This document shows, piece by piece, positions 102 through 40,852 of a stretch of DNA of 64,000 nt (position 1 is the first letter of the stretch; every line of letters starts with the position of its first letter). Below the pieces are notes generated by a model, which searched no databases, was not told the origin of the DNA, and saw nothing but the letters and a program-made list of their open reading frames with translations. Source of the DNA: Candidatus Pacebacteria bacterium RIFOXYA1_FULL_38_18 (GTDB taxonomy: Bacteria; Patescibacteriota; Microgenomatia; UBA1400; PJMF01); contig MFWV01000009.1 in assembly GCA_001787405.1 (NCBI GenBank), positions 26,278 to 90,277 of the forward strand, in the 5' to 3' direction. The position numbers were made by a program, and so were the translations under genes.

Positions 102-1766
102 TTATGATTTTTTTAAAGTCTGTTTTTTTTCTTGCCATATTAATCCAGCCCAAACCAAAAGAGCTAAACCACTAATCACATTACCCGTAATTCTGGGCCA
201 AGTTTGTTGAGTAAAGCGAGACACAATCTGATACTCACCAGGAACCAACTGATAAGCCAATCTGCCTTGAATCAAATCATCATTAAGATAAGTGACCGGT
301 TTATCATTGGCCGTGGTTTGCCAGCCGGCAAAATTCATAGTGGGTTCTGCAATCAGGGCTTCTTGTGTTACTAACAACTGATAGCGACGACTGGAGCCTG
401 TCCAATGCTCAACCGTAAATTCTGCTTGGCCATTCAATACTCTGGGCTCTGGAGACCAGTCGCCAAATAAAATATAGGTAAAGGTTTTTGGTAAATTTTC
501 ATTCAAAGAACTAGTGCTTTGTGGAAATAAATCATATTCCAGAGTGCTTTTATGAAAAATAGCAATAGCCGACAAACGAAAAACTGCCAAGATTTGAATT
601 AAAAATAATAAACCAAGTAGCCACTTAAAACCTCGTCCCAATTGCCAAGTAAAAGCTACTAGCGGAGCCGTAAAAATCAACCAAAATAAAGTTAAACGCC
701 AGGGAAACTGAATAAAACCGATGAGCGGAATTGTTTTCCAAAATACTTGACTGGCTGGCGTTTGTAAAATCAGCAAAAATCCCCCCACCAAACATAAAAA
801 AAACAATTTATGAGCCAATTGCCGATTGGTTCGACCGTATTTGATCAACCACAATGAAGCAATTAGTAGAGAAAACAAAGGGAGCAAACCAACCGCTAGG
901 CTCAGAGTATCAATCGGTACAGAAAAAGAAAAACCAAATGTCAGTGGCGAAGTAACTAGTTGTGAGGGCTGAACTAAGTGTTCGATCGAGCCTACATTGA
1001 GATTGGTTTCATCCAAAACAACCAAGTTTTTCTCCGCTACTGCCGGCAACCAAAACCATAAAGATAATAATCCAGCCAGCAGTACTGTCTTGAGCCATTG
1101 TAACCAGTTGGTTCTATCAAACTTTAAAATACAGAGGTTATAAAAAAACCATAAAATCATTCCAAACATTACTGAGATGTTATGCGAGAGCAAAAAACCA
1201 AGTACGATGGGGATGCTGATTTTCCAAGAAACAAATTTTTTCTGTTTCCAGCGCTGAGTAAGCCATAATAGCCAGGGGAAAAGCCCCAAAGCCCAAACCT
1301 CACCAATGTTGCCTCGAACATAAATTAGGTTAGCCACAAAAGGAGCAGTAAAATAAGTTCCAGCAACAAACAGAGTACTGAGAAGAGAAAAATTTAGCAA
1401 TTTGAGCCAAGAAATGATACCCACTGCGCCCAAAGAAAGACCAGCTACCATGAGTAGTTTAAAAATCAATTCATAAGAAACACCCAAAACACTCAGGGGT
1501 AGTGACAAAATATTAGCCAGTGGATAATTATAATTAAAAACCGGATAGCCATAATGATTCATCAGATTGGGAGCAAGACGAGGGGGAAATTGTCCTTCGC
1601 GGATCGCCACTTTGTAATTGGCAAAACGAGCTAAATGATTTTCTCCATCATGAGTGTAAGGTACACCAGTTTGAAGATATGGCTGAATTAAGACCAATAA
1701 TGGCAAGAAAATAAGCAACCAACTTGGTTTTTTAAATAAATTCTTTAAGACGCTTAGTTTTTTCAT
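102..1766 (-). CDS. Large polytopic membrane protein, GT-C/YfhO-like (paralog A of three); putative glycosyltransferase
   Basis: N-terminal motif HDGENHLARF...REGQFPPRL...HYGYPVFNYNYPL is shared with the ORFs at 19607 and 24604. It has many TM segments and a C-terminal extracytoplasmic domain (NFAGWQ) followed by a final TM. The start is set at the internal MKKLSV, giving a 4-nt overlap with the upstream gene; the ORF track start is 1814. Confidence 0.7.
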   Translation of the reverse strand: MKKLSVLKNLFKKPSWLLIFLPLLVLIQPYLQTGVPYTHDGENHLARFANYKVAIREGQFPPRLAPNLMNHYGYPVFNYNYPLANILSLPLSVLGVSYELIFKLLMVAGLSLGAVGIISWLKLLNFSLLSTLFVAGTYFTAPFVANLIYVRGNIGEVWALGLFPWLLWLTQRWKQKKFVSWKISIPIVLGFLLSHNISVMFGMILWFFYNLCILKFDRTNWLQWLKTVLLAGLLSLWFWLPAVAEKNLVVLDETNLNVGSIEHLVQPSQLVTSPLTFGFSFSVPIDTLSLAVGLLPLFSLLIASLWLIKYGRTNRQLAHKLFFLCLVGGFLLILQTPASQVFWKTIPLIGFIQFPWRLTLFWLIFTAPLVAFTWQLGRGFKWLLGLLFLIQILAVFRLSAIAIFHKSTLEYDLFPQSTSSLNENLPKTFTYILFGDWSPEPRVLNGQAEFTVEHWTGSSRRYQLLVTQEALIAEPTMNFAGWQTTANDKPVTYLNDDLIQGRLAYQLVPGEYQIVSRFTQQTWPRITGNVISGLALLVWAGLIWQEKKQTLKKS

Positions 1767-2800
1767 AAAATACTTTGATAGACTCGCATAGTTTCCTCGG
1801 CAGTTTTCTCCCAAGTAAACTGTTGCTCCCAGTCAGCAGCTTTCTTTACCCAAGCTCTGCGTTTGGCTTGAGTTAAATTTAAGATCATCTCAATATTTTC
1901 TGCCAGTGCCTCCGCAGTAGCTTCAGCAAAAAGAGTAACCTTGCCTCCCACTTCCAATAAAGAAGAGTTGCCAGTTGCTACTACTGGCGTTTTACAACGC
2001 ATTGCTTCCAAAACAGGCAAACCAAAACCCTCAGATAATGAAGGCTGAACATAAACTGCTGCTGCAGAATAAATAGCTGATAAAGTTTGATAGTCATCGC
2101 TTAGAATATCTGGTTTGAACAATACTCGTTTGGCAACATTACTCAGTGCTATTTGCGCCTCTATGGCCTGCCACTCAGGAATGTCTTGTGGGAAAAAATG
2201 TTTGCCTACGCAAACCAACTTGATGTTTTCTGGTAAATATTTGAGAGCTTTGATTAATTGAGGAATATTTTTATTGTAATTAATGTCTCCTACATACAAG
2301 ATATATTTTTCTGGTAACTTGAGTTTGCGCTTGGCTGTTTTTAGTTTGCTGGCAGGTAGTGGTTGTAAAAATGGATTGGCCGCCAGAGGCACTACCGCTA
2401 TTTTTCCCAAAGGTACACCCAAATGAGTAGCAATATCTTGTTGCGAGGCTTGAGAGTCCGTGATGACTTTAGCTACTGTCTTCAGAGCTAGTTTCTGATG
2501 AGCAAAAGCCAACCAGCCTCGTTTGCCCACAGGATATTCTTTGGGAAAAAGAAGTGGGATAACATCATGAATCGTTACTATGGTTTTACTAAATTTGGCC
2601 AGTGGCAAAGTGGGGAAAAATAAATCAAAGAAAGGATAGTGGACAATGTCTATTTTTTTAGGCCTTTGCACTAAACTAGAGCGATACAATTCTATGCCAG
2701 GTTGCTTTTCCAATGCTTCACTCAAAAAACGAGTGTACATTCCCACTCCGCGAATAGCATGACCGGATGAGAGTGGTTGAACATTGATCAGAACTTTCAT
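1763..2800 (-). CDS. GT4 (GT1-fold) glycosyltransferase
   Basis: EGFGLPVLEAMRCKTPVVATGNSSLLEVGG retaining-GT motif. The start is trimmed to MKVLINV for a 4-nt overlap with the gene at 2797. Confidence 0.85.
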   Translation of the reverse strand: MKVLINVQPLSSGHAIRGVGMYTRFLSEALEKQPGIELYRSSLVQRPKKIDIVHYPFFDLFFPTLPLAKFSKTIVTIHDVIPLLFPKEYPVGKRGWLAFAHQKLALKTVAKVITDSQASQQDIATHLGVPLGKIAVVPLAANPFLQPLPASKLKTAKRKLKLPEKYILYVGDINYNKNIPQLIKALKYLPENIKLVCVGKHFFPQDIPEWQAIEAQIALSNVAKRVLFKPDILSDDYQTLSAIYSAAAVYVQPSLSEGFGLPVLEAMRCKTPVVATGNSSLLEVGGKVTLFAEATAEALAENIEMILNLTQAKRRAWVKKAADWEQQFTWEKTAEETMRVYQSIL

Positions 2801-3588
2801 GATCGACTTTCCTTTGTTTGCGTTTGCTCTAGTTCCCACAATTTAAGATAAGCTACTGGATAATGTAAACCGCTCATCAATGCGAAAACAAAACCTGGGT
2901 AACCATCCAAAAAACCTTTATGACGCAAAAAGAGTGAAAGAAAAATCTGCAATGGTTTGATTAAAAAATAATAAAAACCACCCCACCACGTCAAACGTTT
3001 ATTCTCTTCCCACCAAAGTTTGGCTCTAAAAGAAGTGTAGGTATCGAACTTACGCAAATAATCAGCAAAGGTAGGATTGGCAAAGTGGAGCAAATGGCCT
3101 TTTGCCAAACCCACCGAACCGTCCACTGTCATTTGCTCGTGCACATCAGCTTGGGGTAATTTGGCTTTGCCGGCTAAATATAAACGAATGACTGGATCAG
3201 GATACTGCCCGCCTTTGGTGAGCCAGCGACCCAAAAATAAATTTTTACGGCGAAGCCACCAAGCAGAATTTTTTAATTGACCTTCTTTGCGTTTTTTTTC
3301 GATGAGTTTGATAAATTCAAATAATTTTTCGTCCACTACTTCATCAGCATCCAGTTGCAAGATTAATTCCCCGCGAGCCTTATCCATTGCCAGCTGTTTA
3401 TTGATGTGAAAATTTTGTTTGTTGGTAGTTTTATAAACTCGTGCGTCAAAACTTTTGGCAATTTGGGGGGTGCTATCTTTAGAACTGCCATCAACTACAA
3501 TAATTTCATCGGCTAATTTTTTGATAGATGCCAAACAACGAGCCAAGTTTTTTTCTTCATTATAAGTAGCCAGTACAACTGAAATCAT
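2797..3588 (-). CDS. GT2 glycosyltransferase, DPM1/ArnC-like polyprenol-phosphate sugar synthase
   Basis: MISVVLATYNEEKNL...VVDGSSKDST...LDADE: GT2-A fold with DxD. The start is trimmed to MISVV for a 4-nt overlap. Confidence 0.85.
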   Translation of the reverse strand: MISVVLATYNEEKNLARCLASIKKLADEIIVVDGSSKDSTPQIAKSFDARVYKTTNKQNFHINKQLAMDKARGELILQLDADEVVDEKLFEFIKLIEKKRKEGQLKNSAWWLRRKNLFLGRWLTKGGQYPDPVIRLYLAGKAKLPQADVHEQMTVDGSVGLAKGHLLHFANPTFADYLRKFDTYTSFRAKLWWEENKRLTWWGGFYYFLIKPLQIFLSLFLRHKGFLDGYPGFVFALMSGLHYPVAYLKLWELEQTQTKESRS

Positions 3589-5150
3589 AAATCCTTTTCT
3601 ACGATCCAAACTGATGCTGTTTCTGACCATTGTACCAAGATTGTCTCGGTTTGAGAGCGATCTTGTGGCTCAGCAATAAAATGATAATGAGTGAGCTGTT
3701 CTCCATAACGAAAACCTATTTGATTTGGTTGCTGACGAATGATGGTTTTAAAATAAACATCAGGCGGAAGTTTGAGATACCAAGCCAAGATAATATAGTG
3801 ATAACCAGACGGATCGACAATGGCTATCGGCTGATCGGGGTGTTCTGCTTCCACTGTTTGCATTACTTGGGCAAAACCAGGTTGAAAAGCTTGCGTTTGT
3901 TTTGGATAAATTATGAATAATTGAAAAGCGTGATGAGTGGCTTCCAAAACAAGCACCAGTATTATTGCTCCCCAAATAAATTTATTTTGTTTGAGCCAGC
4001 CAGTCAACCAAACCAAGCCCCAAACCGCAATAATTTGTAATAAAACAAAAAAGAGCAAACTACGAGTGGCATGTGGCGCATCAACAGTGATGATGGCTGG
4101 GAGGAGTGAAGCAAAGAGCAACCAAAGCCAAGCCAGTTCGCGTTTGTGAGTTATTGTCAATTTTTTACAAGCTCGAATCGCTCTACCTGTCATGGCTATG
4201 ATTCCCACTCCGGCAAAACAGAAGCTAGTCCATAGGACGTGTCCCAAATTGGGCAGACTGTGCCATGGGTGACTACCACCTGTGGTTAGCAAAAACTTGA
4301 TAGAAAATGAGCTAAATAGATTTTTGATCGATAAATAAATAAAATAAAGATAACGATTGCCGATTAATGATTGCCAGGGTTGATTGAGGCTGGCTCGGAA
4401 ATTGCTCCATTCATGCCAAACAGTCTCATCACTGAAAATAGTAATGCCACTTTTTTGAGAAGTCAAAGCAAGCAATGACCTCAAACCTACCAAAAAAACT
4501 GCTCCCAAAATCAATTCTATGAGAATTAATTTGTTTTTCTGTTTATTGGCAAATCGCAACCAAACGAAAATCATCAAAACTGGTAAAAGTAATAAAGGCG
4601 TGTTGTAGGTAAAAATAGCCAGCAAAAGTAAGATTATTAAAAGCGGAACGTGCCAGCGTCGGGCTTTATGCTGAAATTCCAGTAAAACCACCAAGGCAGC
4701 TATTAGGTAGGTAAGAGCTAAGTTGGCCTCAAAAGCCAAACGCGAATACCAAATAAATACGGGAGAGACCGCTATCAATAAACTTGCCAGCCAAGCCTGT
4801 TTTTCAATGAACTTAATTTTTTTGGCCAGTAAAAAAACCAATGGTACCAGCACCGTACCAGCCAGCGCCGATGGCAGACGAACGGCCAAGTCAGTCAAGC
4901 CAAAAATCTTTAAAAAGGGAATTAATAATAATGGATAACCAGCCAATTTATAGTCGCCAAATGATTCTAGGGTAAGTGGCCAGCTTTTTTGCCATTCATC
5001 TTGGCCGGTTGTTGATAATAAATAAGCATTGTATGCCAGAGCTGCCTCATCGCGGTTGAGAATAGCGGGTAATTGACCCAATTGCCAAACACGCAAGAAG
5101 AAGGCTAATAAGGTGATTGAGATTAATAACCAATTGATTTTTTTATTCAT
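3585..5150 (-). CDS. GT-C family membrane glycosyltransferase (ArnT/PMT-like, GT39/GT83-type)
   Basis: N-terminal TM then first-loop motif LNRDEAALAYNAYLLSTTGQDEW (DE motif) and more than ten TMs. 4-nt overlap with the next gene. Confidence 0.85.
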   Translation of the reverse strand: MNKKINWLLISITLLAFFLRVWQLGQLPAILNRDEAALAYNAYLLSTTGQDEWQKSWPLTLESFGDYKLAGYPLLLIPFLKIFGLTDLAVRLPSALAGTVLVPLVFLLAKKIKFIEKQAWLASLLIAVSPVFIWYSRLAFEANLALTYLIAALVVLLEFQHKARRWHVPLLIILLLLAIFTYNTPLLLLPVLMIFVWLRFANKQKNKLILIELILGAVFLVGLRSLLALTSQKSGITIFSDETVWHEWSNFRASLNQPWQSLIGNRYLYFIYLSIKNLFSSFSIKFLLTTGGSHPWHSLPNLGHVLWTSFCFAGVGIIAMTGRAIRACKKLTITHKRELAWLWLLFASLLPAIITVDAPHATRSLLFFVLLQIIAVWGLVWLTGWLKQNKFIWGAIILVLVLEATHHAFQLFIIYPKQTQAFQPGFAQVMQTVEAEHPDQPIAIVDPSGYHYIILAWYLKLPPDVYFKTIIRQQPNQIGFRYGEQLTHYHFIAEPQDRSQTETILVQWSETASVWIVEKDL

Positions 5151-6835
5151 GGCATTTTTTCAAAATAAATAGCTGCATACTCTGGTCGGTAATCTGCTGT
5201 ATAAAAAATTTTATACCAATTTGGCTGACGAGAGGCAATGGTTTCCAGTTGCCAATCAATAAAATCTTTTCTAGCAATCAAAACTGTTTTTTCAGACAAA
5301 GTAGGTAGTTTTCCCCAATCGAACCAACGAAAACGAATATTATCAATATGGGTGGGCATGTATTGATCAAACTCAATTTTGCTAAAATCCTCAACTGGCA
5401 ATTCATAGGCCATTAGCCACAAATAAAATCTGCTATCGAAAGGCTCGATCCACACTACATCCATTTCTTGTTTTTGTTGCCAAGCTTCATGCGCCAAATC
5501 AGCAAAACCAGTCTGCCACTCACTAGCCGATAGACTGGGATAGACGGAGAAATAAAAAGTAGTGAAGTCCCAAAATGAAAATGCCACTATTGATAGTAAA
5601 CTAAGCCCGAAAGCTAGTTTGAGCCAGCTTGGTTCAACTGCTTGCTTGATTTTCTGCCAACCATAGAAACATCCCCAACCAATCACCACAGTCAGTGGAA
5701 CTAGAGCATTGAGAGAGCGCAAGGCATGAGGGGTGGTTTCTGGTACTGAAGCTGGCAGTAGAGCTGTCAGCCACCACAAGAGCAATAAGACTCCCACTCG
5801 CCAGTGTTTAGTAAACAAAACAAACCAACCATAGATAAAGGGCAAAATAAAAATCGTCAAAAACAAACCATGCCTACCAGTACCATGACGAAGATTGGGA
5901 TCGCCAGTAAAAAAGAGAAAGTCGCTAGAAAGATTGTCTGCATAATTTTTGGCCAGTTCACGAATCAATAAAACTTTGGGATGATAAATGACTTTATCAA
6001 ATAAGGTATTACCGGCTGATAATTTATATTGATTGGAGACTACTGGCCAATCAGCCATGTTCAAAACAGAAGTGGCGCTGAGCCGAAACTGATTGCTGAT
6101 TTTATAAAATGGTGAGCGATACATGGGCCAAAGACTGAGGGTAAAAATCAAGAGCGGTAAAATTAAATTCAAACCAAGCCAGCGCCATAAATTCTGGCCT
6201 TTTCGTTGGGGACCGGCAAATAAACAAATGGTTGCTACAAAAACTACCGGCCAAACAAAACGAATCGAAAAATAAGTATAAGTAGCCAAACCACCCAATA
6301 AAGCTGCGGCCAAGCCCCAAACCCAGTGTTTTTTAGTTTTGAAAGCCAACCAAATACTAGTTGCCATCAGCAATTGACCCACGTGTCCTTCAAAGCCAGT
6401 TCTGGAAAAAAGGATGCTCCAGGGAGTGAGAGCGATAATGAATGCTGTCCACAGAAAAATTGATTGTTGATGCTGTTTTTTTATAGAACCTACCAGCTGA
6501 CTAGCCAAAGCTCCTCCAATGAAAATAGTTGCCATACCAGCCAAGGCGCTGGGTAGCCTCAAAGCCCAATTACTAGCTCCCCACAGTTTAACACTGATAG
6601 AAGCCAGCCAAATATAAACCGGAAGCTTGTAATCACCATAAGACGGGAAAATAGCCGATAGCCAAGCATTACCATGCATGTCCTGACCAGTGGCAGCAAT
6701 GGCTCGCGCATCTACCAAAATCGCTGCTTCATCCCAGTAAAGAGAGACTGGCACCTCTCCCAAACGATAAAAACGCACCGTCAAGCCAATCAAGAAAATA
6801 AAACTCAAAATTAAAGCAAAAAGCCATTTGGACAT
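5147..6835 (-). CDS. GT-C family membrane glycosyltransferase (ArnT/PMT-like)
   Basis: RFYRLGEVPVSLYWDEAAILVDARAIAATGQDMHGNAW; polytopic. Confidence 0.85.
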   Translation of the reverse strand: MSKWLFALILSFIFLIGLTVRFYRLGEVPVSLYWDEAAILVDARAIAATGQDMHGNAWLSAIFPSYGDYKLPVYIWLASISVKLWGASNWALRLPSALAGMATIFIGGALASQLVGSIKKQHQQSIFLWTAFIIALTPWSILFSRTGFEGHVGQLLMATSIWLAFKTKKHWVWGLAAALLGGLATYTYFSIRFVWPVVFVATICLFAGPQRKGQNLWRWLGLNLILPLLIFTLSLWPMYRSPFYKISNQFRLSATSVLNMADWPVVSNQYKLSAGNTLFDKVIYHPKVLLIRELAKNYADNLSSDFLFFTGDPNLRHGTGRHGLFLTIFILPFIYGWFVLFTKHWRVGVLLLLWWLTALLPASVPETTPHALRSLNALVPLTVVIGWGCFYGWQKIKQAVEPSWLKLAFGLSLLSIVAFSFWDFTTFYFSVYPSLSASEWQTGFADLAHEAWQQKQEMDVVWIEPFDSRFYLWLMAYELPVEDFSKIEFDQYMPTHIDNIRFRWFDWGKLPTLSEKTVLIARKDFIDWQLETIASRQPNWYKIFYTADYRPEYAAIYFEKMP

Positions 6836-34507: not shown

Positions 34508-35683
34508 ATGAAAAAAAAGTCGGCCATTATCATCATTCCTACTTATAATGAGCGAGAAAACATCACTGCTACCCTGGAACAAGTCTATGCTGTGTTGCGT
34601 ACCGTTAAAAATTGGCAATGCGGAGTCTTGGTAGTTGATGATACTTCTCCAGACAAAACCTATGAATTGGTAAAAAAACTGCAAAATAAATATAGTAATT
34701 TGCATTTATTTCTCAACAAACGAAAAGCCGGTTTGGGTGGGGCTTATCTCAAAGGCATGGCTCATGCTTTTAATGAACTGGGAGCCGATCTCGTTTTTCA
34801 GTTTGATGCTGATTTATCTCACGATCCCAAAAAAATTCCGCAGTTTTTGAAAAAAATCGAAGCCGGCAATGATTTGGTGTTGGGCTCGCGCTATATTCCT
34901 GGTGGCAGTATTCCTGATAATTGGGGTCTGCATCGAAAATTCCTGAGTGTAATAGGTAATTTATTCATCAACATTGTGTTGACCAATTTTAATGTGCGTG
35001 ATTGGACTACTGGTTATCGAGCCGTTAATAAAAAAGTTTATCAAGCCGTTTCTCCAGAACTAACAACAGAGCGTTTTTCAGGATATACTTTTCAGATAGG
35101 CTTTTTACATAAAGCTATCAGTAAGGGTTTCAAGGTCGCTGAAGTGCCATTTCACTTCAAAGATCGTAATTTTGGTAAAAGTAAAATAGGACCAGAGTAT
35201 ATTAAAAATACTCTGTTATACATCATGAAGGCTCGCTTACAAGAAATTTTCAAAAACAGAATCTTTAAATTTTTGGTAGTGGGTAGTGTCGGTGCTTTTG
35301 TGCAGTTATCTACTTTGCAAATCTGGCGATTATTATTTCCCTTTCAACTTGCCTTTTTCCTAGCCATTGAGGGAGCCGTTATAAGTAATTTTATTTTTAA
35401 TAATTTTTGGACTTTTTCTGATCGAAAATTACAATCCAAACAATATTTCTCCAAATTTTTACAATTTAACTTAGCTTCAGGAGGCTCAATTATTATTCAG
35501 CAATTAATTGCTTTTCTGGGAGAAATGTATCTTGGTTTGTTTGATTTATTCACTCTACCCATAATCAATTTTACTATCGACACCGGCACAATGTATGCCG
35601 TCGTAGGAATCTTGATTGGGATGTTCTGGAACTTTTTTGCCTACAGTAAGATTATTTGGAAAAAACAAAACAAGGCTCATTAA
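34508..35683 (+). CDS. GT2 polyprenol-phosphate sugar synthase (DPM1/GtrB-like) fused to a C-terminal GtrA-like membrane domain
   Basis: AIIIIPTYNERENI...VVDDTSPDKT...FDADLSHDP followed by a 4-TM tail, FKFLVVGSVGAFVQLSTLQIWRLLF..., that is typical of GtrA. Confidence 0.8.
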   Translation: MKKKSAIIIIPTYNERENITATLEQVYAVLRTVKNWQCGVLVVDDTSPDKTYELVKKLQNKYSNLHLFLNKRKAGLGGAYLKGMAHAFNELGADLVFQFDADLSHDPKKIPQFLKKIEAGNDLVLGSRYIPGGSIPDNWGLHRKFLSVIGNLFINIVLTNFNVRDWTTGYRAVNKKVYQAVSPELTTERFSGYTFQIGFLHKAISKGFKVAEVPFHFKDRNFGKSKIGPEYIKNTLLYIMKARLQEIFKNRIFKFLVVGSVGAFVQLSTLQIWRLLFPFQLAFFLAIEGAVISNFIFNNFWTFSDRKLQSKQYFSKFLQFNLASGGSIIIQQLIAFLGEMYLGLFDLFTLPIINFTIDTGTMYAVVGILIGMFWNFFAYSKIIWKKQNKAH

Positions 35684-37249
35684 ATGAAGGTAACTGCCTC
35701 CTGGAAAAAAATCATCCTGGGATTGTTGTTGATAAGTGGAGTTTTTTTGCGTTTTTATAATCTTGCTGGCACCTTGCAATTTCAAGGCGATCAAGGTCGC
35801 GATGCTATCGTGGTAGCTGATATTTTCCGTCAAAAGGATCTGGTTTTTATCGGTCCTGTAACTAGTGTGGGCAATATGTACTTAGGTCCACTTTATTACT
35901 ACTTTATGCTACCTTTTTTATGGCTTTCTTATCCCAGTCCATTGGGACCTGTCTATGCTGTAGCCTTATTGGGAGTGATAGTCACTTATCTTATTTATAA
36001 ACTGGGCAAAGATCTAATCGGCAAAACAGGAGCTTTGCTGGCTACCTTCTTTTTTACCTTTAGTGCCACGATTACGCAAACTTTTCGTTTTAGCTGGAAT
36101 CCCAATCCAGCGCCATTTGTCTCTATCGTGATGATTTGGGCTACTGCTCAAGCTTGGCAGAAAAATCCTCGTTACTGGATCTTGGTGGCAATTACTTTTA
36201 GTGTCCTTATTCAACTTCATTACATGACTTTACTGGCTGCACCGGCAGCTGGAATAATTTGGCTGGTTGATTTTTGGCAACGACATCGGAAAGCGCCCAA
36301 GAAACTTCGTCCTTATTGGCAACAACTAAAGTTATTGATCCTGCCAACGCTGATCGGCGCTCTTATTTTTCTATTATCTCTAACTCCATTGGTGCTTTTT
36401 GATCTAAAACATGAGGCCACCAATCTTCAAGCTTTCAAATCACTACTAACCAGTGAGGAAAACTTCACTCCTACCGGTACTGTCAAATCTTTGCTGGGTA
36501 AAACTACTGAAACCCTCAAAGAAACCGAGGGCAGAGGCATGCATATTTTATTTGAATATATGATTGGAAAAAATAGACCTCTAAATCAATCATTATTGTA
36601 TTTGGTTTCTTTTGTTTTACTGATTAATTTATGGAAAAAACATCAACTTGGAAAAGAATCAAAAAAAGAATGGGTGCTCGTTTCTTATTTGGGATTTGGT
36701 ATCTTGGGCACTGCTTTGTACCAACACACTATTTTTGATCACTATATTGCCTATCTTTTTCCTATCACTGTTTTGGTTTATGGTTTTGTCTTGACCAAAA
36801 TAAGACCGCATTGGCTGGGTTTTCTAGCCGGAATTTTATTTGTGGCAGTTTTTCTGCAATATAATCTCCCTCGATTGCCACTCAAAACTACCGGTTGGAC
36901 AATGGCTGATATTCAGCAAACCAGTCAAGAAATCTTGAAGCATGTCAAACCAGGAGAAAAGTACAACTTGGTTTTATTATCCGAAAGCCGTGATATTAAT
37001 GGCCAAAATTATCGTTATTTTTTGACTACTGGTCACACTAGGCCAGTCTCAGAAAATGAACGCGGAGAAATAGAAACTTTGTTTATTATTAATGAAGAGA
37101 AAAAAATTAGTAAAGTTACTGATTCTCCCATTTATGAAATAGTCGTCTTTCCTAATAAAGAACCTGCTGAAGTTTTTTCAATCGATAACGGTCCAGAAAT
37201 CACGATTTTGCGTACAACTACCCAAGAAAGCTTGGAACCGCTAGAATGA
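35684..37249 (+). CDS. GT-C family membrane glycosyltransferase, ArnT-like (variant first-loop motif DQGRDA)
   Basis: LRFYNLAGTLQFQGDQGRDAIVVADIF aligns to the ArnT DETRYA loop. It is polytopic with a large C-terminal soluble domain. Confidence 0.65.
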   Translation: MKVTASWKKIILGLLLISGVFLRFYNLAGTLQFQGDQGRDAIVVADIFRQKDLVFIGPVTSVGNMYLGPLYYYFMLPFLWLSYPSPLGPVYAVALLGVIVTYLIYKLGKDLIGKTGALLATFFFTFSATITQTFRFSWNPNPAPFVSIVMIWATAQAWQKNPRYWILVAITFSVLIQLHYMTLLAAPAAGIIWLVDFWQRHRKAPKKLRPYWQQLKLLILPTLIGALIFLLSLTPLVLFDLKHEATNLQAFKSLLTSEENFTPTGTVKSLLGKTTETLKETEGRGMHILFEYMIGKNRPLNQSLLYLVSFVLLINLWKKHQLGKESKKEWVLVSYLGFGILGTALYQHTIFDHYIAYLFPITVLVYGFVLTKIRPHWLGFLAGILFVAVFLQYNLPRLPLKTTGWTMADIQQTSQEILKHVKPGEKYNLVLLSESRDINGQNYRYFLTTGHTRPVSENERGEIETLFIINEEKKISKVTDSPIYEIVVFPNKEPAEVFSIDNGPEITILRTTTQESLEPLE

Positions 37250-38013
37250 TAAACATGGCAAATAACTCTCCTTTTCTATCAGTGGTAGTGCCCTCTTTCA
37301 ATGAACAAAAAAATATTGCCAGAGGAGTATTGTCAGAAATGCTGGATTATTTAAAAACTCAAGATTATTCTTGGGAAATAATCCTCACCGATGACGGTAG
37401 CACCGATGGTACTGTTGAAAAACTAACGGCCTTTGCTAAGAACCATCCTCACATTAAAGTTTTGAAAAATCTGCACGCCGGAAAAGGACCCACTGTGGCA
37501 GCAGGAATGTTGGCTGCTAACGGTCAATGGCGTTTATTTACTGATTTTGATCAATCAACTCCCCTTTCAGAAGTAGAAAAATTATTTGCTTTTACTGATA
37601 CTCATCAAGTTATTTTTGGTTCTAGAGAAATAAAAGGAGCCAAAAGAGACAAGGAACCATTTTATCGTCACTTGATGGGGAGAGGCTTTAATTTATTGGT
37701 CCGGATTATGGCAGTACCCGGAGTCAGCGATACTCAATGTGGTTTTAAGTTATTTTCAGCACCCACAGCAGAAACACTATTCAAAAAATTATATGTTTAT
37801 GGTCATCAAACAGAACGGCCAGATGCCTTCACTGGTGCTTTTGATGTGGAATTATTATTTTTGGCCAGAAAACTGGGATTTGCGAGTATTGAGGTGCCCA
37901 TTCTTTGGCGACATCATGCCACTGATCGAGTCAGTCCTATTAAAGATTCCTTGCGCATGTTGCGTGATATTTTATTGATCAGATGGGCCAAAATAACGGG
38001 TAAATATCGATAA
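37246..38013 (+). CDS. GT2 polyprenol-phosphate sugar synthase (DPM1/ArnC-like)
   Basis: FLSVVVPSFNEQKNI...LTDDGSTDGT...TDFDQS. Confidence 0.8.
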   Translation: MINMANNSPFLSVVVPSFNEQKNIARGVLSEMLDYLKTQDYSWEIILTDDGSTDGTVEKLTAFAKNHPHIKVLKNLHAGKGPTVAAGMLAANGQWRLFTDFDQSTPLSEVEKLFAFTDTHQVIFGSREIKGAKRDKEPFYRHLMGRGFNLLVRIMAVPGVSDTQCGFKLFSAPTAETLFKKLYVYGHQTERPDAFTGAFDVELLFLARKLGFASIEVPILWRHHATDRVSPIKDSLRMLRDILLIRWAKITGKYR

Positions 38014-38015
38014 AA

Positions 38016-39305
38016 ATGTTTAAAAAAAATAACCTGAAAATTGGTAATCCCTTAAGTTTGCTATTTAAATTATTATTTGTTTTCAACTTACTTTACGTTT
38101 TTTGGTCATATTCTCTTACCGATCCCAACTTAATTCTCACTAGTTGGCCACCTTATTGGCAATTTCAGCAAAGAATGTGGCAGTTCTTTTTTCATCAGCG
38201 AGAGTGGTTGAGTTATGGATATGCTAGTTTGATGATCGGTTTATTTGCTGTTTATTTTTGGGGTATTTATTTGACTGGCAAACAAACCGCAAAAATCGTC
38301 CAGCGAAAAGATTTTTTTAAATATCTATTGGCTCTCTCTCCTCTGTTGCTAAGTTACAACGCTCTTTCTCATGATGTATTTAATTACATTTTTAATGCCA
38401 AAATGATTCTGGTTTATCATGCCAATCCTCATCTTCAAGTTGCTCTGGATTTTGTTCGTGATGATTGGGTTCGGTTTATGCATAACACCCATACCCCAGC
38501 TCCATATGGTTACGGCTGGACCGCTCTTTCACTATTACCTTCTTTTTTGGGAGCAAGCAAATTTGTCGCTACCTGGTTACTCTTTCGAGCTTGGGCTGTT
38601 ATTAGTTTGGTTTTGTTGTACCAAGTGATAGTCAAATTAACTAGTAAAGTTACTGGTAAATCATTGAGCCTGCCTTCTTTTTGGTTATTATTTGCCAATC
38701 CGCTGTTATTTATCGAAATAATCGCCAATCAACACAATGATTTATGGATGCTGGTGCCAGCCTTAACTTCTATTCTATTGGTCATTGAAAAACCAACCTG
38801 TTTGCTTGGGCGCAGTCAATTGACAAAAAAAACAATGAGTGTTTTGCTTTTCAAATTATTACTTTCCATAGGCTTATTGATTTTCTCGATTTCCATCAAA
38901 CTAGCTACCCTGGTGCTAATTCCTATTTGGTTGCTAATCATTGCTCGCTGGTTTGTGCCTTTAATAAAACAAAGGATTTCTAAATTTAATTTGATGTGGT
39001 TGAACTCGGTTGCTCTTTTTCTGCCACTTTTTACTGCTCGTTCACAACAATTTCTCCCTTGGTATTTGATCTGGTCTTTGGTCTGGCTACCTGTCATCAA
39101 AATTGGGTGGTGGAAACGTTGGCTGGTGATAATTTCTCTAACCGCCATGGCTCGTTATCTACCTTGGTTGTGGGCCGGTGGCTTTGACAGTCAAGTCTTG
39201 TGGCAACAAAAATTATTTTTATGGGGTGGAGCAGTGGGACTGTGGTTGATTATTTCTTTATTTTCACTCTTTAAAGCTAAAGTAGCTTACAATAAAAAAA
39301 CATGA
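38016..39305 (+). CDS. Polytopic membrane protein, probable GT-C-type glycosyltransferase (DUF2029/GT87-like guess)
   Basis: About 12 TM segments with the loop motif NALSHDVFNYIFNAK. It is co-operonic with GT2 and GT-C genes. Confidence 0.5.
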   Translation: MFKKNNLKIGNPLSLLFKLLFVFNLLYVFWSYSLTDPNLILTSWPPYWQFQQRMWQFFFHQREWLSYGYASLMIGLFAVYFWGIYLTGKQTAKIVQRKDFFKYLLALSPLLLSYNALSHDVFNYIFNAKMILVYHANPHLQVALDFVRDDWVRFMHNTHTPAPYGYGWTALSLLPSFLGASKFVATWLLFRAWAVISLVLLYQVIVKLTSKVTGKSLSLPSFWLLFANPLLFIEIIANQHNDLWMLVPALTSILLVIEKPTCLLGRSQLTKKTMSVLLFKLLLSIGLLIFSISIKLATLVLIPIWLLIIARWFVPLIKQRISKFNLMWLNSVALFLPLFTARSQQFLPWYLIWSLVWLPVIKIGWWKRWLVIISLTAMARYLPWLWAGGFDSQVLWQQKLFLWGGAVGLWLIISLFSLFKAKVAYNKKT

Positions 39306-40852
39306 AAAAAATCTTTAAGCCAATTACTTTATTTTTCTTGGGTTGTTTGGTAGTTTATTTGGCTACTCATCTGCCTGCTTTGACTAAACTACCAGTTTTT
39401 GCTGATGAAGCAATCTATCTTCGTTGGGCCCAACTTATTCTGGACGACTGGCGACAATACTTATTTTTCCCTCTCAATGACGGCAAAACGCCGTTATTTA
39501 TCTGGCTAGCAGTGGGATCGCTCAAAATATTTACCGATCCATTATTGGCTGGTCGAATGATTTCTTTAATTGCCGGTCTGGTTCAGGTTTGGGTGACAGT
39601 TTCGATAGTTAAAAAACTGGGAGGCCAAAAAATCGCTGTTGTTTTTGCAACTTTGACAGTGATTTGGTTACCTTTTTGGTTTTTTCATCATCGAATGGCT
39701 TTGATGGACGGCCTGTTAGTTCTTTGGCTTTCTCTTTCAATCAATAGTTTGCTATCTGCTAGTTTGAAAAAATCCAAGCGTTGGCAAGCACTACTGGGAG
39801 CAGGTTTGTTTTTTGGCTTGTCATTATTGACCAAGTTATCAGCTCTATTATTTATTCCGATTCTTTTACTTGTACCTTGGTTGGTTAAAACTAAAAAAAT
39901 CAATCATGCTCACACTCTCAGTTGGAGTGTTGGCACGCTATTAATTGGTTTGTTAGTTTTTCTCAGTCTCAAGTTGCAACCTGCCTTTGGCCAGTTATTT
40001 AATCGTGGCAACGATTTTCTTTATCCATTAAATGAAGTTTTGGCTCTGAAAGTTTGGCCGGTTGTTTTTGCCAATAGCCGTCATGTTTGGCAAGTACTGA
40101 ATGCTTATCTAACTTGGCCAATCCTGATTTTACCTATCTTGGGTCTTTGGCAAACAAAGTGGCAGAGAAAGCATTTTATTTTATTATTGACTGCTTTGGG
40201 CTTCTTGGGGCCAATCATTTTATTGAGCAAAGTGCTCTATCCTCGTTATTTATTACCAGCTGCCCTACCCATAACAATCTCAGCTTCATTGGCTTTTGAA
40301 CAGTTTTTTTTGAGTACCAAAAAAGCAATAAAAAAACCCTTCATTTTTTTCATTAAAGTTAGTTTCTTAATCTTTGGCATTACTTTTGTCAGCACTAAAG
40401 CTCTAGAATTTACCCTCATTTCCTGGCAAGACCCCAACCATCTGCCCTTCACTGATCTGGATAGATCTCAATATTTACAAGCTTGGTCTGCTGGAAATGG
40501 TATCAAAGAAACAACCGATTATTTATTATTAACCGCTCAAGAACACACCGTCGCTGTCGCCACCGAAGGCTATTTTGGTACTTTGCCCGATGGAGTCTTG
40601 ATGTATTTGCATAATCAAGATGTGACCAATATTTTGGTTGAGGGCATTGGTCAGCCGATTCACGAAATTCCCGATGATTTTGCTAAAAAGGCTCAATATT
40701 TTGAACAAGTTTGGTTAGTAGTAAATTCTCACCGACAAATGATGCATTTAACTCCCGATCAACCGAATGTTGCTTTGATTAAAAAATATTGTCGAGTAAA
40801 TCATGCTCCTTGTCTGGAAATCTGGGACATTACTCAGCTAGTTCATCAGTAA
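39302..40852 (+). CDS. GT-C family membrane glycosyltransferase, ArnT-like
   Basis: LPVFADEAIYLRWAQLIL (DE motif as in ArnT DETRY), polytopic, with a C-terminal soluble domain. Confidence 0.8.
   Translation: MKKIFKPITLFFLGCLVVYLATHLPALTKLPVFADEAIYLRWAQLILDDWRQYLFFPLNDGKTPLFIWLAVGSLKIFTDPLLAGRMISLIAGLVQVWVTVSIVKKLGGQKIAVVFATLTVIWLPFWFFHHRMALMDGLLVLWLSLSINSLLSASLKKSKRWQALLGAGLFFGLSLLTKLSALLFIPILLLVPWLVKTKKINHAHTLSWSVGTLLIGLLVFLSLKLQPAFGQLFNRGNDFLYPLNEVLALKVWPVVFANSRHVWQVLNAYLTWPILILPILGLWQTKWQRKHFILLLTALGFLGPIILLSKVLYPRYLLPAALPITISASLAFEQFFLSTKKAIKKPFIFFIKVSFLIFGITFVSTKALEFTLISWQDPNHLPFTDLDRSQYLQAWSAGNGIKETTDYLLLTAQEHTVAVATEGYFGTLPDGVLMYLHNQDVTNILVEGIGQPIHEIPDDFAKKAQYFEQVWLVVNSHRQMMHLTPDQPNVALIKKYCRVNHAPCLEIWDITQLVHQ

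What the first reader, a model, noticed from the sequence alone, without database searches (positions are those of the whole stretch)
102..40852. A 40-kb cell-envelope glycosylation megalocus dense in GT-C glycosyltransferases
About 35 consecutive genes are almost all glycan-related. There are 10 ArnT/PMT-like GT-C enzymes, 3 YfhO-like giant membrane proteins, 7 GT2 enzymes, 2 GT4 enzymes, a Wzx flippase, an LCP ligase and nucleotide-sugar genes (rmlB/rmlD, ugd, gmd with an rmd-like reductase). Many are translationally coupled through 4-nt overlaps. This density of lipid-carrier-dependent, extracytoplasmic glycosyltransferases is far beyond a normal O-antigen or teichoic-acid locus. It suggests an elaborate, possibly multi-branched wall glycopolymer or extensive protein O-glycosylation system that, to my knowledge, has not been characterised in such reduced-genome bacteria. 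The flippase, the LCP ligase and GDP-D-rhamnose/dTDP-rhamnose/UDP-GlcA precursor genes in the same block support a surface polymer that is flipped, decorated outside the membrane, and ligated to peptidoglycan.
Basis: partly seen in the sequence, partly recalled or inferred. Interest (0 to 1): 0.75.

Follow-up and report, generated by a model that had tools for sequence, protein, structure and literature searches.

The report
GT-C-rich surface-glycan locus in Pacebacteria
An ultra-small groundwater bacterium (Pacebacteria, CPR) gives over 40 kb of its tiny genome to sugar-attaching enzymes, including 13 membrane enzymes that work outside the cell; related genomes keep the block, but the surface glycan it builds is uncharacterised.

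Summary
Window 102-40852 holds 33 genes, and 29 are glycan-related or putatively so (28 assigned plus one conserved 64-aa membrane ORF). There are 13 GT-C-fold membrane glycosyltransferases, 7 GT2, 2 GT4, a Wzx flippase, an LCP ligase, RmlB, RmlD, Ugd, Gmd and an Rmd-like reductase. argS, surE and trmD are interspersed.

The organism is Candidatus Pacebacteria (CPR/Patescibacteria) from groundwater. The block is native: G+C is even and it has no repeats. It is collinear with relatives at about 50% protein identity, and each GT-C paralog has its own ortholog, so the duplications are ancient. The locus continues at least 10 kb left of the window, where a GacI/GacJ-like pair lies.

The best explanation is a multi-component extracytoplasmic glycosylation system. 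GT2 enzymes load polyprenyl-phosphate with sugars, GtrA and Wzx flip them, many GT-Cs build or branch a glycan outside the membrane, and LCP probably links it to peptidoglycan.

The acceptor (wall polymer, protein or lipid) is undetermined. No priming transferase, Wzy, RmlA or RmlC lies in the block.

The parts are known kinds; the GT-C-dominated architecture in a CPR genome appears undescribed. Interest 0.6.

The parts
102..1766 (-). Family B GT-C glycosyltransferase (554 aa), PTPS_related/AftD-like, with a C-terminal beta-sandwich and a terminal TM helix
   Evidence: No Pfam or NCBIfam hit. AlphaFold pLDDT 88.9. Foldseek PDB hits AftD 6e-4, STT3, AglB, ArnT, AftA, Pmt4. Profile against the PMT_2 set gives probability 95%. 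Homologs carry PF10131/PF11847.
1763..2800 (-). GT4 glycosyltransferase (345 aa)
   Evidence: Glycos_transf_1 94 bits, Glyco_transf_4. Start as called.
2797..3588 (-). GT2 glycosyltransferase (263 aa)
   Evidence: Glycos_transf_2 81.5 bits. Start as called.
3585..5150 (-). Family A GT-C (521 aa), PMT/PMT_2
   Evidence: PMT_2 36.5 and PMT 32.3 bits, both above cut-off. 11 hydrophobic peaks. RDE motif after TM1.
5147..6835 (-). Family A GT-C (562 aa)
   Evidence: PMT_2 26.4 bits, at cut-off. Paralogy E 1e-17 to 1e-46. WDE motif.
6860..8614 (-). Arginyl-tRNA synthetase, a housekeeping gene embedded in the block
   Evidence: tRNA-synt_1d 274 bits, DALR_1, Arg_tRNA_synt_N. Same position in relatives L003 and L082.
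8662..10362 (-). Family A GT-C (566 aa), no Pfam hit
   Evidence: BLASTP E 1e-44 to 1e-47 to PMT_2-positive paralogs. WEE motif. Sources name homologs GT39 or ArnT-like.
10369..11982 (-). Family A GT-C (537 aa)
   Evidence: PMT_2 32.9 bits. This is the only family-A member next to argS in UBA6180.
12011..12871 (-). GT2 glycosyltransferase (286 aa)
   Evidence: Glyco_tranf_2_3 54 bits, Glycos_transf_2 50.7 bits.
12868..13998 (-). GT4 glycosyltransferase (376 aa)
   Evidence: Glycos_transf_1 69.5 bits.
14003..14824 (-). GT2 glycosyltransferase (273 aa)
   Evidence: Glycos_transf_2 59.4 bits.
14821..15738 (-). GT2 glycosyltransferase (305 aa), weak rhamnosyltransferase similarity
   Evidence: Glycos_transf_2 50.9 bits. 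TIGR01556 53 bits, below the 200 cut-off.
15766..17505 (-). Family A GT-C (579 aa), no Pfam hit
   Evidence: BLASTP E 1e-33 to 1e-51 to paralogs. RDE motif. Ortholog at 53% in L082.
17515..18441 (-). GT2 glycosyltransferase (308 aa)
   Evidence: Glycos_transf_2 59.3 bits.
18529..19629 (+). Short (366 aa) PMT_2-like GT-C
   Evidence: PMT_2 22 bits, below cut-off. 579 representative homologs, mostly about 370 aa. 15 of 50 hit PMT_2, best 2e-14. Profile against family A gives probability 93%.
19589..21358 (+). Family B GT-C (up to 589 aa; the true start is probably later)
   Evidence: PTPS_related 46.2 bits, above cut-off. hhalign to the family B profile 99.9%.
21412..23088 (+). Family A GT-C (558 aa), no Pfam hit
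   Evidence: BLASTP E 1e-26 to 1e-51 to paralogs. WDE motif.
23108..24607 (-). Wzx/MOP-family flippase (499 aa)
   Evidence: Polysacc_synt_3 151.5 bits. MOP flippase NF007773 71 bits, below cut-off. 12 hydrophobic peaks.
24604..26379 (-). Family B GT-C (591 aa), overlapping wzx by 4 nt
   Evidence: Weak YfhO, PMT_2 and PTPS_related hits. hhalign to family B 99.9% and to family A 94%. Ortholog at 42% in UBA6180.
26462..27649 (+). LCP (LytR-CpsA-Psr) glycopolymer-peptidoglycan ligase, one N-terminal TM helix
   Evidence: LytR_cpsA_psr 105 bits. TIGR00350 83 bits against a cut-off of 62.
27667..27861 (+). Conserved 64-aa single-TM protein, function unknown; counted only provisionally with the glycan genes
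   Evidence: Called on the source contig. 65-aa counterpart at the same place in the relative.
27858..28871 (+). RmlB, dTDP-glucose 4,6-dehydratase
   Evidence: TIGR01181 472 bits against a cut-off of 365.
28886..29671 (+). SurE nucleotidase; not a glycan gene and absent at this spot in the relative
   Evidence: SurE 95 bits. L084 has RmlB directly followed by RmlD.
29682..30557 (+). RmlD-like dTDP-4-dehydrorhamnose reductase
   Evidence: RmlD_sub_bind 161.6 bits. TIGR01214 143.7 bits, below the 224 cut-off. Best PDB relatives are RmlD.
30554..31201 (-). TrmD tRNA methyltransferase, an embedded housekeeping gene
   Evidence: tRNA_m1G_MT 175 bits. Same position in L084.
31268..32566 (+). Ugd, UDP-glucose 6-dehydrogenase family
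   Evidence: All three UDPG_MGDP_dh domains. TIGR03026 427 bits against 190.
32563..33507 (+). Rmd-like GDP-6-deoxy-D-lyxo-4-hexulose reductase
   Evidence: Best PDB relative is 2pk3 (Rmd), 202 bits, against 128 and 109 for the next two. No NCBIfam equivalog.
33520..34497 (+). Gmd, GDP-mannose 4,6-dehydratase
   Evidence: TIGR01472 430 bits against 415.
34508..35683 (+). GT2 fused to a GtrA-type membrane domain: candidate polyprenyl-phosphate-sugar synthase with a built-in flippase module
   Evidence: Glycos_transf_2 97 bits plus GtrA_DPMS_TM 54 bits. Weak PgfS, ArnC, AglJ and PpgS hits.
35684..37249 (+). PMT_2-type GT-C (521 aa)
   Evidence: PMT_2 34.7 bits. hhalign to family A 96.8%.
37246..38013 (+). 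GT2 (255 aa), candidate second polyprenyl-phosphate-sugar synthase
   Evidence: Glycos_transf_2 74 bits. Weak PgfS, ArnC, PpgS and dolichyl-P-hexose transferase hits.
38016..39305 (+). GT-C (429 aa), ALG3/PIG-M/PimE-like; MptA_B family by precomputed Pfam
39302..40852 (+). PMT/PMT_2 GT-C (516 aa)
   Evidence: PMT_2 50.8 and PMT 39.7 bits, both above cut-off. ADE motif.
40922..42244 (.). Short histidine-kinase ATPase protein (219 aa, +) and OmpR-type response regulator (-), next to the block in this genome and in the relative; link to the locus unproven
   Evidence: HATPase_c, Response_reg and Trans_reg_C. Same pair after the last GT-C in L084.

Best explanation
The block is a native, vertically inherited surface-glycan biosynthesis supercluster of Pacebacteria (CPR). 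It most likely works as an enlarged multi-component extracytoplasmic glycosylation system.

Shown by sequence or structure:
- Enzymes for dTDP-Rha (RmlB and RmlD only), UDP-GlcA (Ugd) and GDP-D-Rha (Gmd plus an Rmd-like reductase).
- Nine soluble GT2/GT4 enzymes.
- A GT2-GtrA fusion. Just outside the window lie a GacI/GacJ-like GT2+DUF2304 pair and a GtrB-like GT2.
- A Wzx flippase whose gene overlaps a GT-C gene by 4 nt.
- 13 GT-C enzymes that keep an acidic motif after TM1. For family A the N-terminus carries positive residues, so this loop should face outward.
- An LCP ligase.

Inferred:
- The GT2 synthases load polyprenyl-phosphate with single sugars or a primer.
- Cytoplasmic GT2/GT4 enzymes extend a lipid-linked oligosaccharide.
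- GtrA and Wzx flip the lipid intermediates.
- The GT-C paralogs, each conserved as its own ortholog, add distinct residues or branches, or polymerise, on the outer face.
- LCP attaches the product to peptidoglycan.

The product would be a complex, branched glycan containing rhamnose, GlcA and hexose. Part of the GT-C set may instead glycosylate surface proteins or lipids.
For: - Gene inventory.
- GT-C fold: for two divergent members. Paralogy and profile links for the rest.
- Conserved acidic motif after TM1 in all six family-A paralogs (W/R-D/E-E) and HDGEN in family B.
- Rmd assignment.
- GT2-GtrA fusion.
- GT2 (227 aa) plus DUF2304 pair 2 kb beyond the window edge. GacJ is a DUF2304 protein that activates GacI (and Rv3632 activates PpgS): 10.1101/180810.
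- The wzx / GT-C pair resembles GacK/GacL and WpsG/WpsJ. GT-C polymerases and transferases acting on C55-P-linked oligosaccharides are documented: PMC9574508.
- LCP gene divergently adjacent.
- Native origin: even G+C of 0.35-0.42, no DNA repeats, and about 50 kb collinear with GCA_049322655.1 at about 50% identity.
- Core order kept in UBA6180, L088 and L089.
- One-to-one orthologs for every paralog, 41-55% against 25-32% between paralogs.
Against: - No priming phosphoglycosyltransferase (WecA/TagO/WbaP), Wzy, Wzz, ABC exporter, RmlA or RmlC in the 64-kb window or in the 10 kb to the left. LCP enzymes normally need a pyrophosphate-linked donor, so the wall-ligation step is not supported by a complete pathway here.
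- None of the GT2/GT4 proteins reaches an NCBIfam equivalog score, so sugar and linkage specificities are unknown.
- Housekeeping genes interrupt the block. Collinearity with the relative continues through unrelated genes (recJ, cca), so conserved order may reflect slow rearrangement rather than functional coupling.
- There are no expression, glycan or biochemical data.
Confidence: 0.55

Rival explanations
1. The block is mainly a protein O-glycosylation system. The PMT/GT39-like GT-Cs transfer sugars from polyprenyl-phosphate donors directly to Ser/Thr of secreted proteins such as S-layer proteins, pilins or adhesins, as in actinobacterial Pmt/Ppm1 or streptococcal Pgf. The many paralogs would give different substrate or sugar specificities.
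For: - Two members pass the Pfam PMT model itself: 3585-5150 at 32.3 bits and 39302-40852 at 39.7 bits, cut-off 22.7.
- NCBI names some homologs 'glycosyltransferase family 39'.
- The GT2-GtrA protein's best NCBIfam hit is PgfS, though far below cut-off.
- The best solved relative of the Rmd-like enzyme is the Rmd of Aneurinibacillus thermoaerophilus. From my own knowledge, that organism uses GDP-D-rhamnose for its S-layer glycoprotein glycan.
Against: - Family A profiles find no PMT among PDB sequences, and PMT_2 scores are marginal.
- An LCP ligase, Wzx and nine soluble GTs are not needed for simple O-mannosylation.
- No candidate acceptor protein or oligosaccharyltransferase (PglL/PglB type) was found in the window.
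Confidence: 0.2
2. The block builds a membrane-anchored lipoglycan or glycolipid by a route like mycobacterial PIM/LM/LAM (or GPI/ER). GT4 enzymes start on a lipid at the inner face. MptA/B-, PimE-, PIG-V- and AftD-like GT-Cs then extend it outside from polyprenyl-phosphate sugars.
For: - 38016-39305 carries PF26314 (MptA_B family) on record and is structurally closest to ALG3, GPI mannosyltransferase I and PimE.
- Family B is closest to AftD, and orthologs have weak PF11847 GT-C_AftD hits.
- The gene after family B is a Gpi18/PIG-V-like membrane protein that is fused to family B in roughly 940-aa homologs.
- No priming phosphoglycosyltransferase is present, and a lipid-anchored product would not need one.
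Against: - The LCP ligase and Wzx point to a wall-linked or lipid-PP-linked product.
- No PI synthase or acyltransferase was seen in the window.
- The GT4 hits are generic.
- Fold similarity among GT-C enzymes does not define the acceptor.
Confidence: 0.15
3. The block is not one system. Several independent glycosylation modules and housekeeping genes sit together only because gene order changes slowly in these small genomes.
For: - At least six changes of transcription direction, with argS, surE and trmD inside the block.
- Collinearity with GCA_049322655.1 runs on through MFS, DsbA, recJ and cca.
- UBA6180 lacks four GT-Cs at the argS locus.
- L088 has the core without argS.
Against: - 29 of 33 genes are glycan-related or putatively so, far from a random sample of a genome.
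- Eleven 4-nt overlaps tie neighbours together.
- Precursor genes, lipid-sugar synthases, flippases, GT-Cs and the ligase are complementary steps.
- None of the other Microgenomates/CPR loci among the 80 argS loci fetched carries family A or B genes; only UBA6180 (L003) does.
Confidence: 0.15

Closest known systems
Multi-component transmembrane glycosylation systems: GtrA/GtrB/GtrX, CsbB/GtcA/YfhO, GacI/J/K/L, and lactococcal WpsA/B-G-I-J and Csd/CflA (review PMC9574508)
   Same: A GT-A/GT2 enzyme makes a polyprenyl-phosphate sugar, a GtrA- or Wzx-family flippase moves it, and a polytopic GT-C transfers it outside. A GacJ-type DUF2304 partner, an LCP ligase and rml genes lie in the same neighbourhood.
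   Different: Known systems use one to three GT-Cs per polymer, whereas this block has 13 (probably 14-16 with the left extension). There is no RgpC/D-type ABC exporter and no recognisable rhamnan backbone genes. The GT-C families are too divergent to hit NCBIfam, and five miss Pfam.
Corynebacteriales lipomannan/LAM and arabinogalactan assembly (Ppm1, PimE, MptA/B, Emb, AftA-D)
   Same: A large set of GT-C enzymes is fed by a few polyprenyl-phosphate sugar donors and builds a branched glycan outside the membrane, with an LCP ligase attaching a polymer to peptidoglycan. Structural neighbours include PimE and AftD, and one member has an MptA_B Pfam record.
   Different: The organism is unrelated, with a very small genome. 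Sequence identity to the solved enzymes is only 10-15%. No PI-anchor, decaprenyl-phospho-arabinose or mycolate genes are present. The genes here sit in one block rather than being scattered.
Protein O-mannosyltransferases (GT39: eukaryotic PMT, actinobacterial Pmt) and ArnT (GT83)
   Same: Pfam PMT and PMT_2 hits, an acidic motif in the first outer loop, and a polytopic architecture.
   Different: Scores are marginal, there are no MIR domains, and profiles find no PDB sequence relatives. Six ancient paralogs sit side by side. The acceptor is unknown.
ER-lumenal ALG and GPI (PIG-M, PIG-V) mannosyltransferases
   Different: This is a bacterial setting with undecaprenyl-type carriers presumed. 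There is no evidence for a dolichol-PP-oligosaccharide or a GPI product.
Wzx/Wzy-dependent O-antigen or capsule loci and wall teichoic acid loci
   Same: Wzx flippase, nucleotide-sugar genes, GT2/GT4 enzymes and an LCP ligase.
   Different: There is no initiating transferase, Wzy, Wzz, TagF-type polymerase or TagGH exporter. GT-C enzymes dominate.

Membership tests
GT-C fold glycosyltransferase superfamily | Polytopic integral membrane protein, about 8-13 TM helices | tested here: met
   6-12 hydrophobic peaks in all 13 candidates by a crude Kyte-Doolittle scan. The two AlphaFold models are helical bundles.
GT-C fold glycosyltransferase superfamily | Conserved acidic (modified DXD) motif in the first extracytoplasmic loop | tested here: met
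   W/R-D/E-E directly after TM1 in all six family-A paralogs and ADE in 39302. HDGEN is invariant in family B and aligns with the family-A motif. D61 is invariant in the 18529 family. 35684 has GDQ at this position. The outward orientation is inferred from the positive N-terminus and was not measured.
GT-C fold glycosyltransferase superfamily | Structural similarity to solved GT-C enzymes | tested here: met
GT-C fold glycosyltransferase superfamily | Uses a lipid-phosphate-linked sugar donor | not testable with these tools
   Needs biochemistry. Candidate donor synthases are present.
Three- or four-component extracytoplasmic glycosylation system (Gtr/Csb/Gac/Wps type) | GT-A-fold polyprenyl-phosphate-sugar synthase | tested here: inconclusive
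   The GT2-GtrA fusion 34508-35683 and GT2 37246-38013 have only sub-threshold PgfS, ArnC, PpgS and Dol-P-hexose transferase hits. A GT2 with C-terminal TM helices and a GT2+DUF2304 pair lie left of the window.
Three- or four-component extracytoplasmic glycosylation system (Gtr/Csb/Gac/Wps type) | GtrA-family or Wzx-family flippase | tested here: met
   GtrA_DPMS_TM 54 bits. Polysacc_synt_3 151 bits.
Three- or four-component extracytoplasmic glycosylation system (Gtr/Csb/Gac/Wps type) | GacJ-type small membrane activator (DUF2304) | tested here: met
   PF10066 on a 110-aa gene overlapping a 227-aa GT2, on the same contig about 2.7 kb beyond window position 1. GacJ belongs to DUF2304 per 10.1101/180810.
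Three- or four-component extracytoplasmic glycosylation system (Gtr/Csb/Gac/Wps type) | Defined glycopolymer acceptor | not testable with these tools
   No glycan data exist for this lineage.
Wzx/Wzy-dependent O-antigen or capsule locus | Initiating phosphoglycosyltransferase (WecA/MraY-type or WbaP-type) | tested here: not met
   No Glycos_transf_4 or Bac_transf hit in any window ORF of 100 aa or more that was scanned, nor in L085.
Wzx/Wzy-dependent O-antigen or capsule locus | Wzy polymerase and chain-length regulator | tested here: not met
   Only a 16.5-bit sub-threshold O_anti_polymase hit inside a PMT_2 protein. No Wzz or Wzy_C hit.
Wall teichoic acid locus | TagB/TagF-type glycerol- or ribitol-phosphate transferases and the TagGH ABC exporter | tested here: not met
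   No such Pfam or NCBIfam hits in the window.
Rhamnose-rich cell-wall polysaccharide locus (rgp/gac/cwps) | Complete rmlABCD, rhamnosyltransferases and the RgpC/D ABC exporter | tested here: not met
   Only RmlB and an RmlD-like protein are present. One GT2 has a weak rhamnosyltransferase hit (53 bits against 200). There is no ABC exporter. The rest of the genome was not examined.
GDP-D-rhamnose pathway (Gmd plus Rmd) | Gmd equivalog next to a GDP-4-keto-6-deoxymannose reductase | tested here: met
   TIGR01472 430 bits against 415. Best PDB relative of the neighbouring gene is Rmd 2pk3, 202 bits. Stereochemistry of the product is not testable here.
Mycobacterial LM/LAM mannosyltransferases (MptA/MptB, PimE) | Membership of the MptA_B Pfam family and a PimE-like fold | tested here: inconclusive

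The most novel reading that the evidence does not exclude
Pacebacteria, and perhaps many Microgenomates, may assemble their main surface glycoconjugate almost entirely on the outer face of the membrane. A relay of 13-16 polyprenyl-phosphate-sugar-dependent GT-C enzymes would do this, in an assembly line like those of the ER lumen or mycobacteria, but arranged as one conserved block in a genome of roughly 1 Mb. The product would be a new class of bacterial envelope polymer that could mediate attachment to hosts or protection from phage.
Probability: 0.25. Interest if true: 0.8.

Novelty: new variant of a known kind. Interest (0 to 1): 0.6.

Why it matters
CPR/Patescibacteria make up a large share of bacterial diversity. 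Cultivated members live attached to other microbes, so their surface chemistry is central to their biology, yet it is almost unknown. A 2024 perspective on unexplored patescibacterial biology does not mention glycans at all. A freshwater survey reports about 15 CAZymes per CPR genome, mostly GT4 and GT2.

This block alone holds 22 glycosyltransferases, 13 of them GT-C. Most of these are annotated as hypothetical proteins because they miss NCBIfam, and five miss Pfam. Standard surveys therefore undercount them.

That a streamlined genome keeps six anciently diverged paralogs as separate orthologs implies that each has its own function, and that the glycan is complex and under selection. The locus provides concrete genes for three lines of work:
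- Heterologous reconstitution.
- Targets for glycan and glycoproteome analysis of enrichments.
- Three divergent GT-C families for structural and biochemical study.

Tried and rejected
- Exact-sequence look-up of argS with its TTG start found nothing. Other genes located the source contig.
- Sequence profiles of families A and B and of the 38016 family found no meaningful relative among PDB sequences; the one match for family A at E ≤ 1 was a spurious TetR regulator, E 0.064.
- My Pfam copy gave no hit for 38016-39305 even at E ≤ 1, although PF26314 is on record for the identical protein (against 12, 27). I treat family-level membership as inconclusive and rely on the fold.
- I tested whether 18529-19629 and 19589-21358 are one frameshifted gene matching the roughly 940-aa homologs. 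Rejected: those long proteins are family B fused to a PIG-V-like domain, and 18529 does not align to them. About 370 aa is the normal length of the 18529 family.
- Horizontal-transfer island: rejected on even G+C, no repeats, no flanking mobile genes and deep synteny.
- Recent tandem duplication: rejected. There is no DNA-level similarity, and each paralog has its own ortholog.
- The promoter/terminator scan was uninformative: 39 promoter-like sites against 38.9 expected.
- The three polytopic proteins left of the window (382, 518 and 450 aa) could not be assigned by Pfam or single-sequence hhalign. Only the 382-aa one has indirect Gpi18/PIG-V-like support.
- Nine literature searches found no description of GT-C expansion or of this locus in CPR bacteria. 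The library lacks most subscription-journal papers, so absence is not proof.

Full report
**What is there.** The window has even composition, G+C 0.35-0.42, and is tightly packed with ORFs.
- GT2: seven genes (2797-3588, 12011-12871, 14003-14824, 14821-15738, 17515-18441, 34508-35683, 37246-38013).
- GT4: two genes (1763-2800, 12868-13998).
- Wzx/MOP flippase: 23108-24607, Polysacc_synt_3 151 bits.
- LCP ligase: 26462-27649, 105 bits; TIGR00350 83 against a cut-off of 62.
- Nucleotide-sugar enzymes: RmlB (TIGR01181, 472 against 365), an RmlD-like reductase (below the NCBIfam cut-off, but its best PDB relatives are RmlD), Ugd, and Gmd (TIGR01472, 430 against 415).
- A short-chain reductase between ugd and gmd. 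Its best solved relative is by far the GDP-6-deoxy-D-lyxo-4-hexulose reductase Rmd (2pk3, 202 bits; the next are 128 and 109).
- Not glycan genes: argS (6860-8614), surE (28886-29671) and trmD (30554-31201).

Using the gene starts called on the source contig, eleven neighbouring gene pairs overlap by exactly 4 nt.

**The membrane proteins.** Thirteen polytopic proteins, apart from Wzx, were claimed as GT-C. All-against-all BLASTP sorts nine of them into two families.
- Family A: 3585, 5147, 8662, 10369, 15766 and 21412. They are 25-34% identical, E 1e-17 to 1e-51. Three pass Pfam PMT_2, and 3585 also passes PMT.
- Family B: 102-1766, 19589 and 24604, E 1e-11 to 1e-19. 19589 passes PF10131 PTPS_related.

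35684 and 39302 pass PMT_2, and 39302 also passes PMT. Both link to family A by hhalign at 96-97%.

The doubtful cases were tested directly.
- 102-1766 has no Pfam or NCBIfam hit. An AlphaFold model from 52 homologs (pLDDT 88.9) has top Foldseek PDB hits that are almost all GT-C enzymes: AftD 6e-4, yeast STT3, AglB, ArnT, AftA and Pmt4, probability 0.93-1.00. Its profile aligns with the PMT_2 set at 95% probability, placing its invariant HDGEN on the family-A W-D/E-E motif.
- 18529-19629 scores 22 bits on PMT_2, below cut-off. It belongs to a family with 579 representatives, mostly about 370 aa. Of 50 members, 15 hit PMT_2 (best 2e-14) and 9 hit PMT. Its profile matches family A at 93%.

All six family-A paralogs keep W/R-D/E-E right after TM1, as well as FGDxK and PHxxR motifs. 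The N-termini are short and positively charged, so this loop should face outward, as in ArnT and PMT. That orientation is inferred.

The count of 13 GT-C stands. The label 'YfhO-like giant' does not: these proteins are 554-591 aa and resemble AftD/PTPS_related.

**Whose genome.** The 38016 protein is 100% identical to a hypothetical protein of Candidatus Pacebacteria bacterium RIFOXYB1_FULL_39_46. The same contig recurs in Rifle and other groundwater assemblies. ArgRS finds only about 50%-identical relatives, all Microgenomates-group CPR. NCBI now places Pacebacteria in the phylum Minisyncoccota.

**Extent and conservation.** The locus does not start at 102. On the source contig, the 10 kb to the left (L085) holds, in order:
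- a 382-aa 10-TM protein. It carries a WANFDGVHY motif and is fused to family B in roughly 940-aa homologs, one of which JGI names Gpi18-like mannosyltransferase;
- an epimerase;
- a 227-aa GT2 overlapping a 110-aa DUF2304 gene;
- two more GT2, one with C-terminal TM helices;
- a 518-aa and a 450-aa polytopic protein, neither assignable;
- another epimerase;
- an AsnB-like amidotransferase.

DUF2304 is the family of GacJ, the activator of the undecaprenyl-phosphate-GlcNAc synthase GacI, and of Rv3632, the partner of PpgS (10.1101/180810).

In GCA_049322655.1 (652-kb contig) the whole stretch is collinear with the window at about 50% protein identity. This includes every family-A paralog, argS, trmD, the sugar-nucleotide genes, the right-hand GT2/GT-C operon and the kinase/regulator pair. 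The collinearity continues into unrelated housekeeping genes.
- Pacebacteria UBA6180 keeps the core order GT2-GT2-GT2-GT4-GT2-GT-C-argS-GT2-GT4 but lacks four family-A genes there.
- A 1.4-Mb contig keeps the core without argS.
- Another CPR contig has seven GT-C genes in a row.
- Among the 80 argS loci fetched, none of the other Microgenomates/CPR loci carries family A or B genes.

Each paralog has its own ortholog at 41-55%, against 25-32% between paralogs, and there is no DNA-level repetition. The duplications are therefore old and every copy has been retained.

The block is native and clade-conserved. It is not an island and not universal.

**How it most likely works.** The parts match the multi-component transmembrane glycosylation systems reviewed for Gram-positive rhamnose polysaccharides (PMC9574508).
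- A GT-A enzyme, sometimes with a GacJ-type partner, makes a C55-P-sugar.
- A GtrA- or Wzx-family flippase moves it across the membrane.
- A GT-C transfers it outside.
- In lactococci, cytoplasmic GTs extend a C55-P-GlcNAc primer, Wzx flips the oligosaccharide, one GT-C polymerises it and another grafts it on, and an LCP enzyme anchors the rhamnan.

Here the candidate donor synthases are the GT2-GtrA fusion (34508), GT2 37246, and the GacI/J-like and GtrB-like genes to the left. The wzx gene overlaps the family-B GT-C 24604 by 4 nt, like GacK/GacL, and the pair sits back to back with LCP. The operon gmd / GT2-GtrA / GT-C / GT2 / GT-C / GT-C looks like two donor-plus-transferase modules fed by GDP-sugars.

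I therefore propose that a few lipid-phosphate sugar donors feed many acceptor-specific GT-Cs, and that these build or branch a complex glycan on the outer face. LCP ligation to peptidoglycan is the likely end point. The gene identities are shown; the donors, the order of steps, the acceptor and the ligation are inferred.

**What weakens it.** No priming phosphoglycosyltransferase, Wzy, Wzz, ABC exporter, RmlA or RmlC occurs in the window or the left extension. No GT2 or GT4 reaches an equivalog score. Conserved order extends to unrelated genes. Three rivals remain open and are not mutually exclusive:
- Protein O-glycosylation, supported by PMT hits and by the use of D-rhamnose in S-layer glycoprotein glycans.
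- A PIM/LM-like lipoglycan, supported by MptA/B-, PimE-, PIG-V- and AftD-like folds and by the missing primer.
- A mere neighbourhood of separate modules.

**Comparison and novelty.** In logic, the block is closest to the Gtr/Csb/Gac/Wps systems. In scale, it is closest to the mycobacterial LM/LAM/arabinogalactan GT-C network. It fails the defining features of Wzx/Wzy O-antigen, teichoic-acid and rgp-type rhamnan loci.

Searches of the paper library found dTDP-rhamnose synthesis noted as conserved in CPR classes, and a guess at rhamnose wall polysaccharides. They found nothing on GT-C, GT39 or GT83 in CPR. A freshwater survey reports about 15 CAZymes per CPR genome, mostly GT4 and GT2. Eight of ten GT-Cs tested have no NCBIfam hit, and sources mostly call them hypothetical proteins, which would explain the silence.

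I rate it a new variant of a known kind, with interest 0.6. It is real, striking and conserved, and it opens the question of CPR surface glycans to experiment. It is built from known enzyme classes, and its product is unknown.

Noticed in passing
L085:11629-21665 (same contig, just left of window position 1): The glycan locus continues at least 10 kb beyond the window. It holds a Gpi18/PIG-V-like 382-aa membrane protein, two epimerases, a GT2+DUF2304 (GacI/GacJ-like) pair, two more GT2, unassigned polytopic proteins of 518 and 450 aa, and an AsnB-like amidotransferase.
   Followed up: partly
window:102-1766 and L085:11629-12777; homologs P0147, P0150, P0172: Family B GT-C and the downstream PIG-V-like protein are separate, overlapping genes here. 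In other CPR genomes they are fused into single proteins of roughly 940 aa, which suggests the two act together.
   Followed up: partly
window:40922-42244: A 219-aa protein has only a histidine-kinase ATPase domain: no sensor, no TM helix and no HisKA hit. It overlaps convergently with an OmpR-type response regulator. The same pair follows the last GT-C in the roughly 50%-identical relative (L084).
   Followed up: no
window:27667-27861: A conserved 64-aa single-TM ORF lies between the LCP gene and rmlB and overlaps rmlB by 4 nt. A 65-aa counterpart sits at the same place in the relative. No family hit.
   Followed up: partly
window:28886-29671: surE sits between rmlB and rmlD here but is absent from that position in GCA_049322655.1, so it is a lineage-specific insertion into an otherwise conserved gene pair.
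   Followed up: partly
window:18529-19629; homologs P0399, P0417, P0447 and others: The short (about 370 aa) PMT_2-like family also occurs as the N-terminal half of roughly 680-aa proteins and the C-terminal part of roughly 950-aa proteins. The positional counterparts in L082 and L088 are 681-683 aa.
   Followed up: partly
L089:8266-20012: Another CPR contig (ERZ27250217) carries seven consecutive GT-C genes of 457-592 aa, followed by a GT2 and a GT4. GT-C arrays are therefore a wider feature of this group.
   Followed up: partly
L011, L012, L027, L043; P0095/P0346: Several public MAG records are labelled Gammaproteobacteria, Pseudomonadales or Vitreimonas. They nevertheless carry CPR-like ArgRS (38-52% identical) or the CPR GT-C genes, which suggests wrong taxonomic labels.
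   Followed up: no
window:62140-63903, 56554-57387, 42776-43333: Three ORFs (587, 277 and 185 aa) have no Pfam hit. The 587-aa one has no predicted TM helix. None was examined further.
   Followed up: no
L021:1491-10889: A Roizmanbacteria MAG has rmlB, rmlD, ugd, an SDR and a GT2-GtrA gene directly upstream of argS. This is a different arrangement that links the same sugar-nucleotide genes to argS.
   Followed up: no
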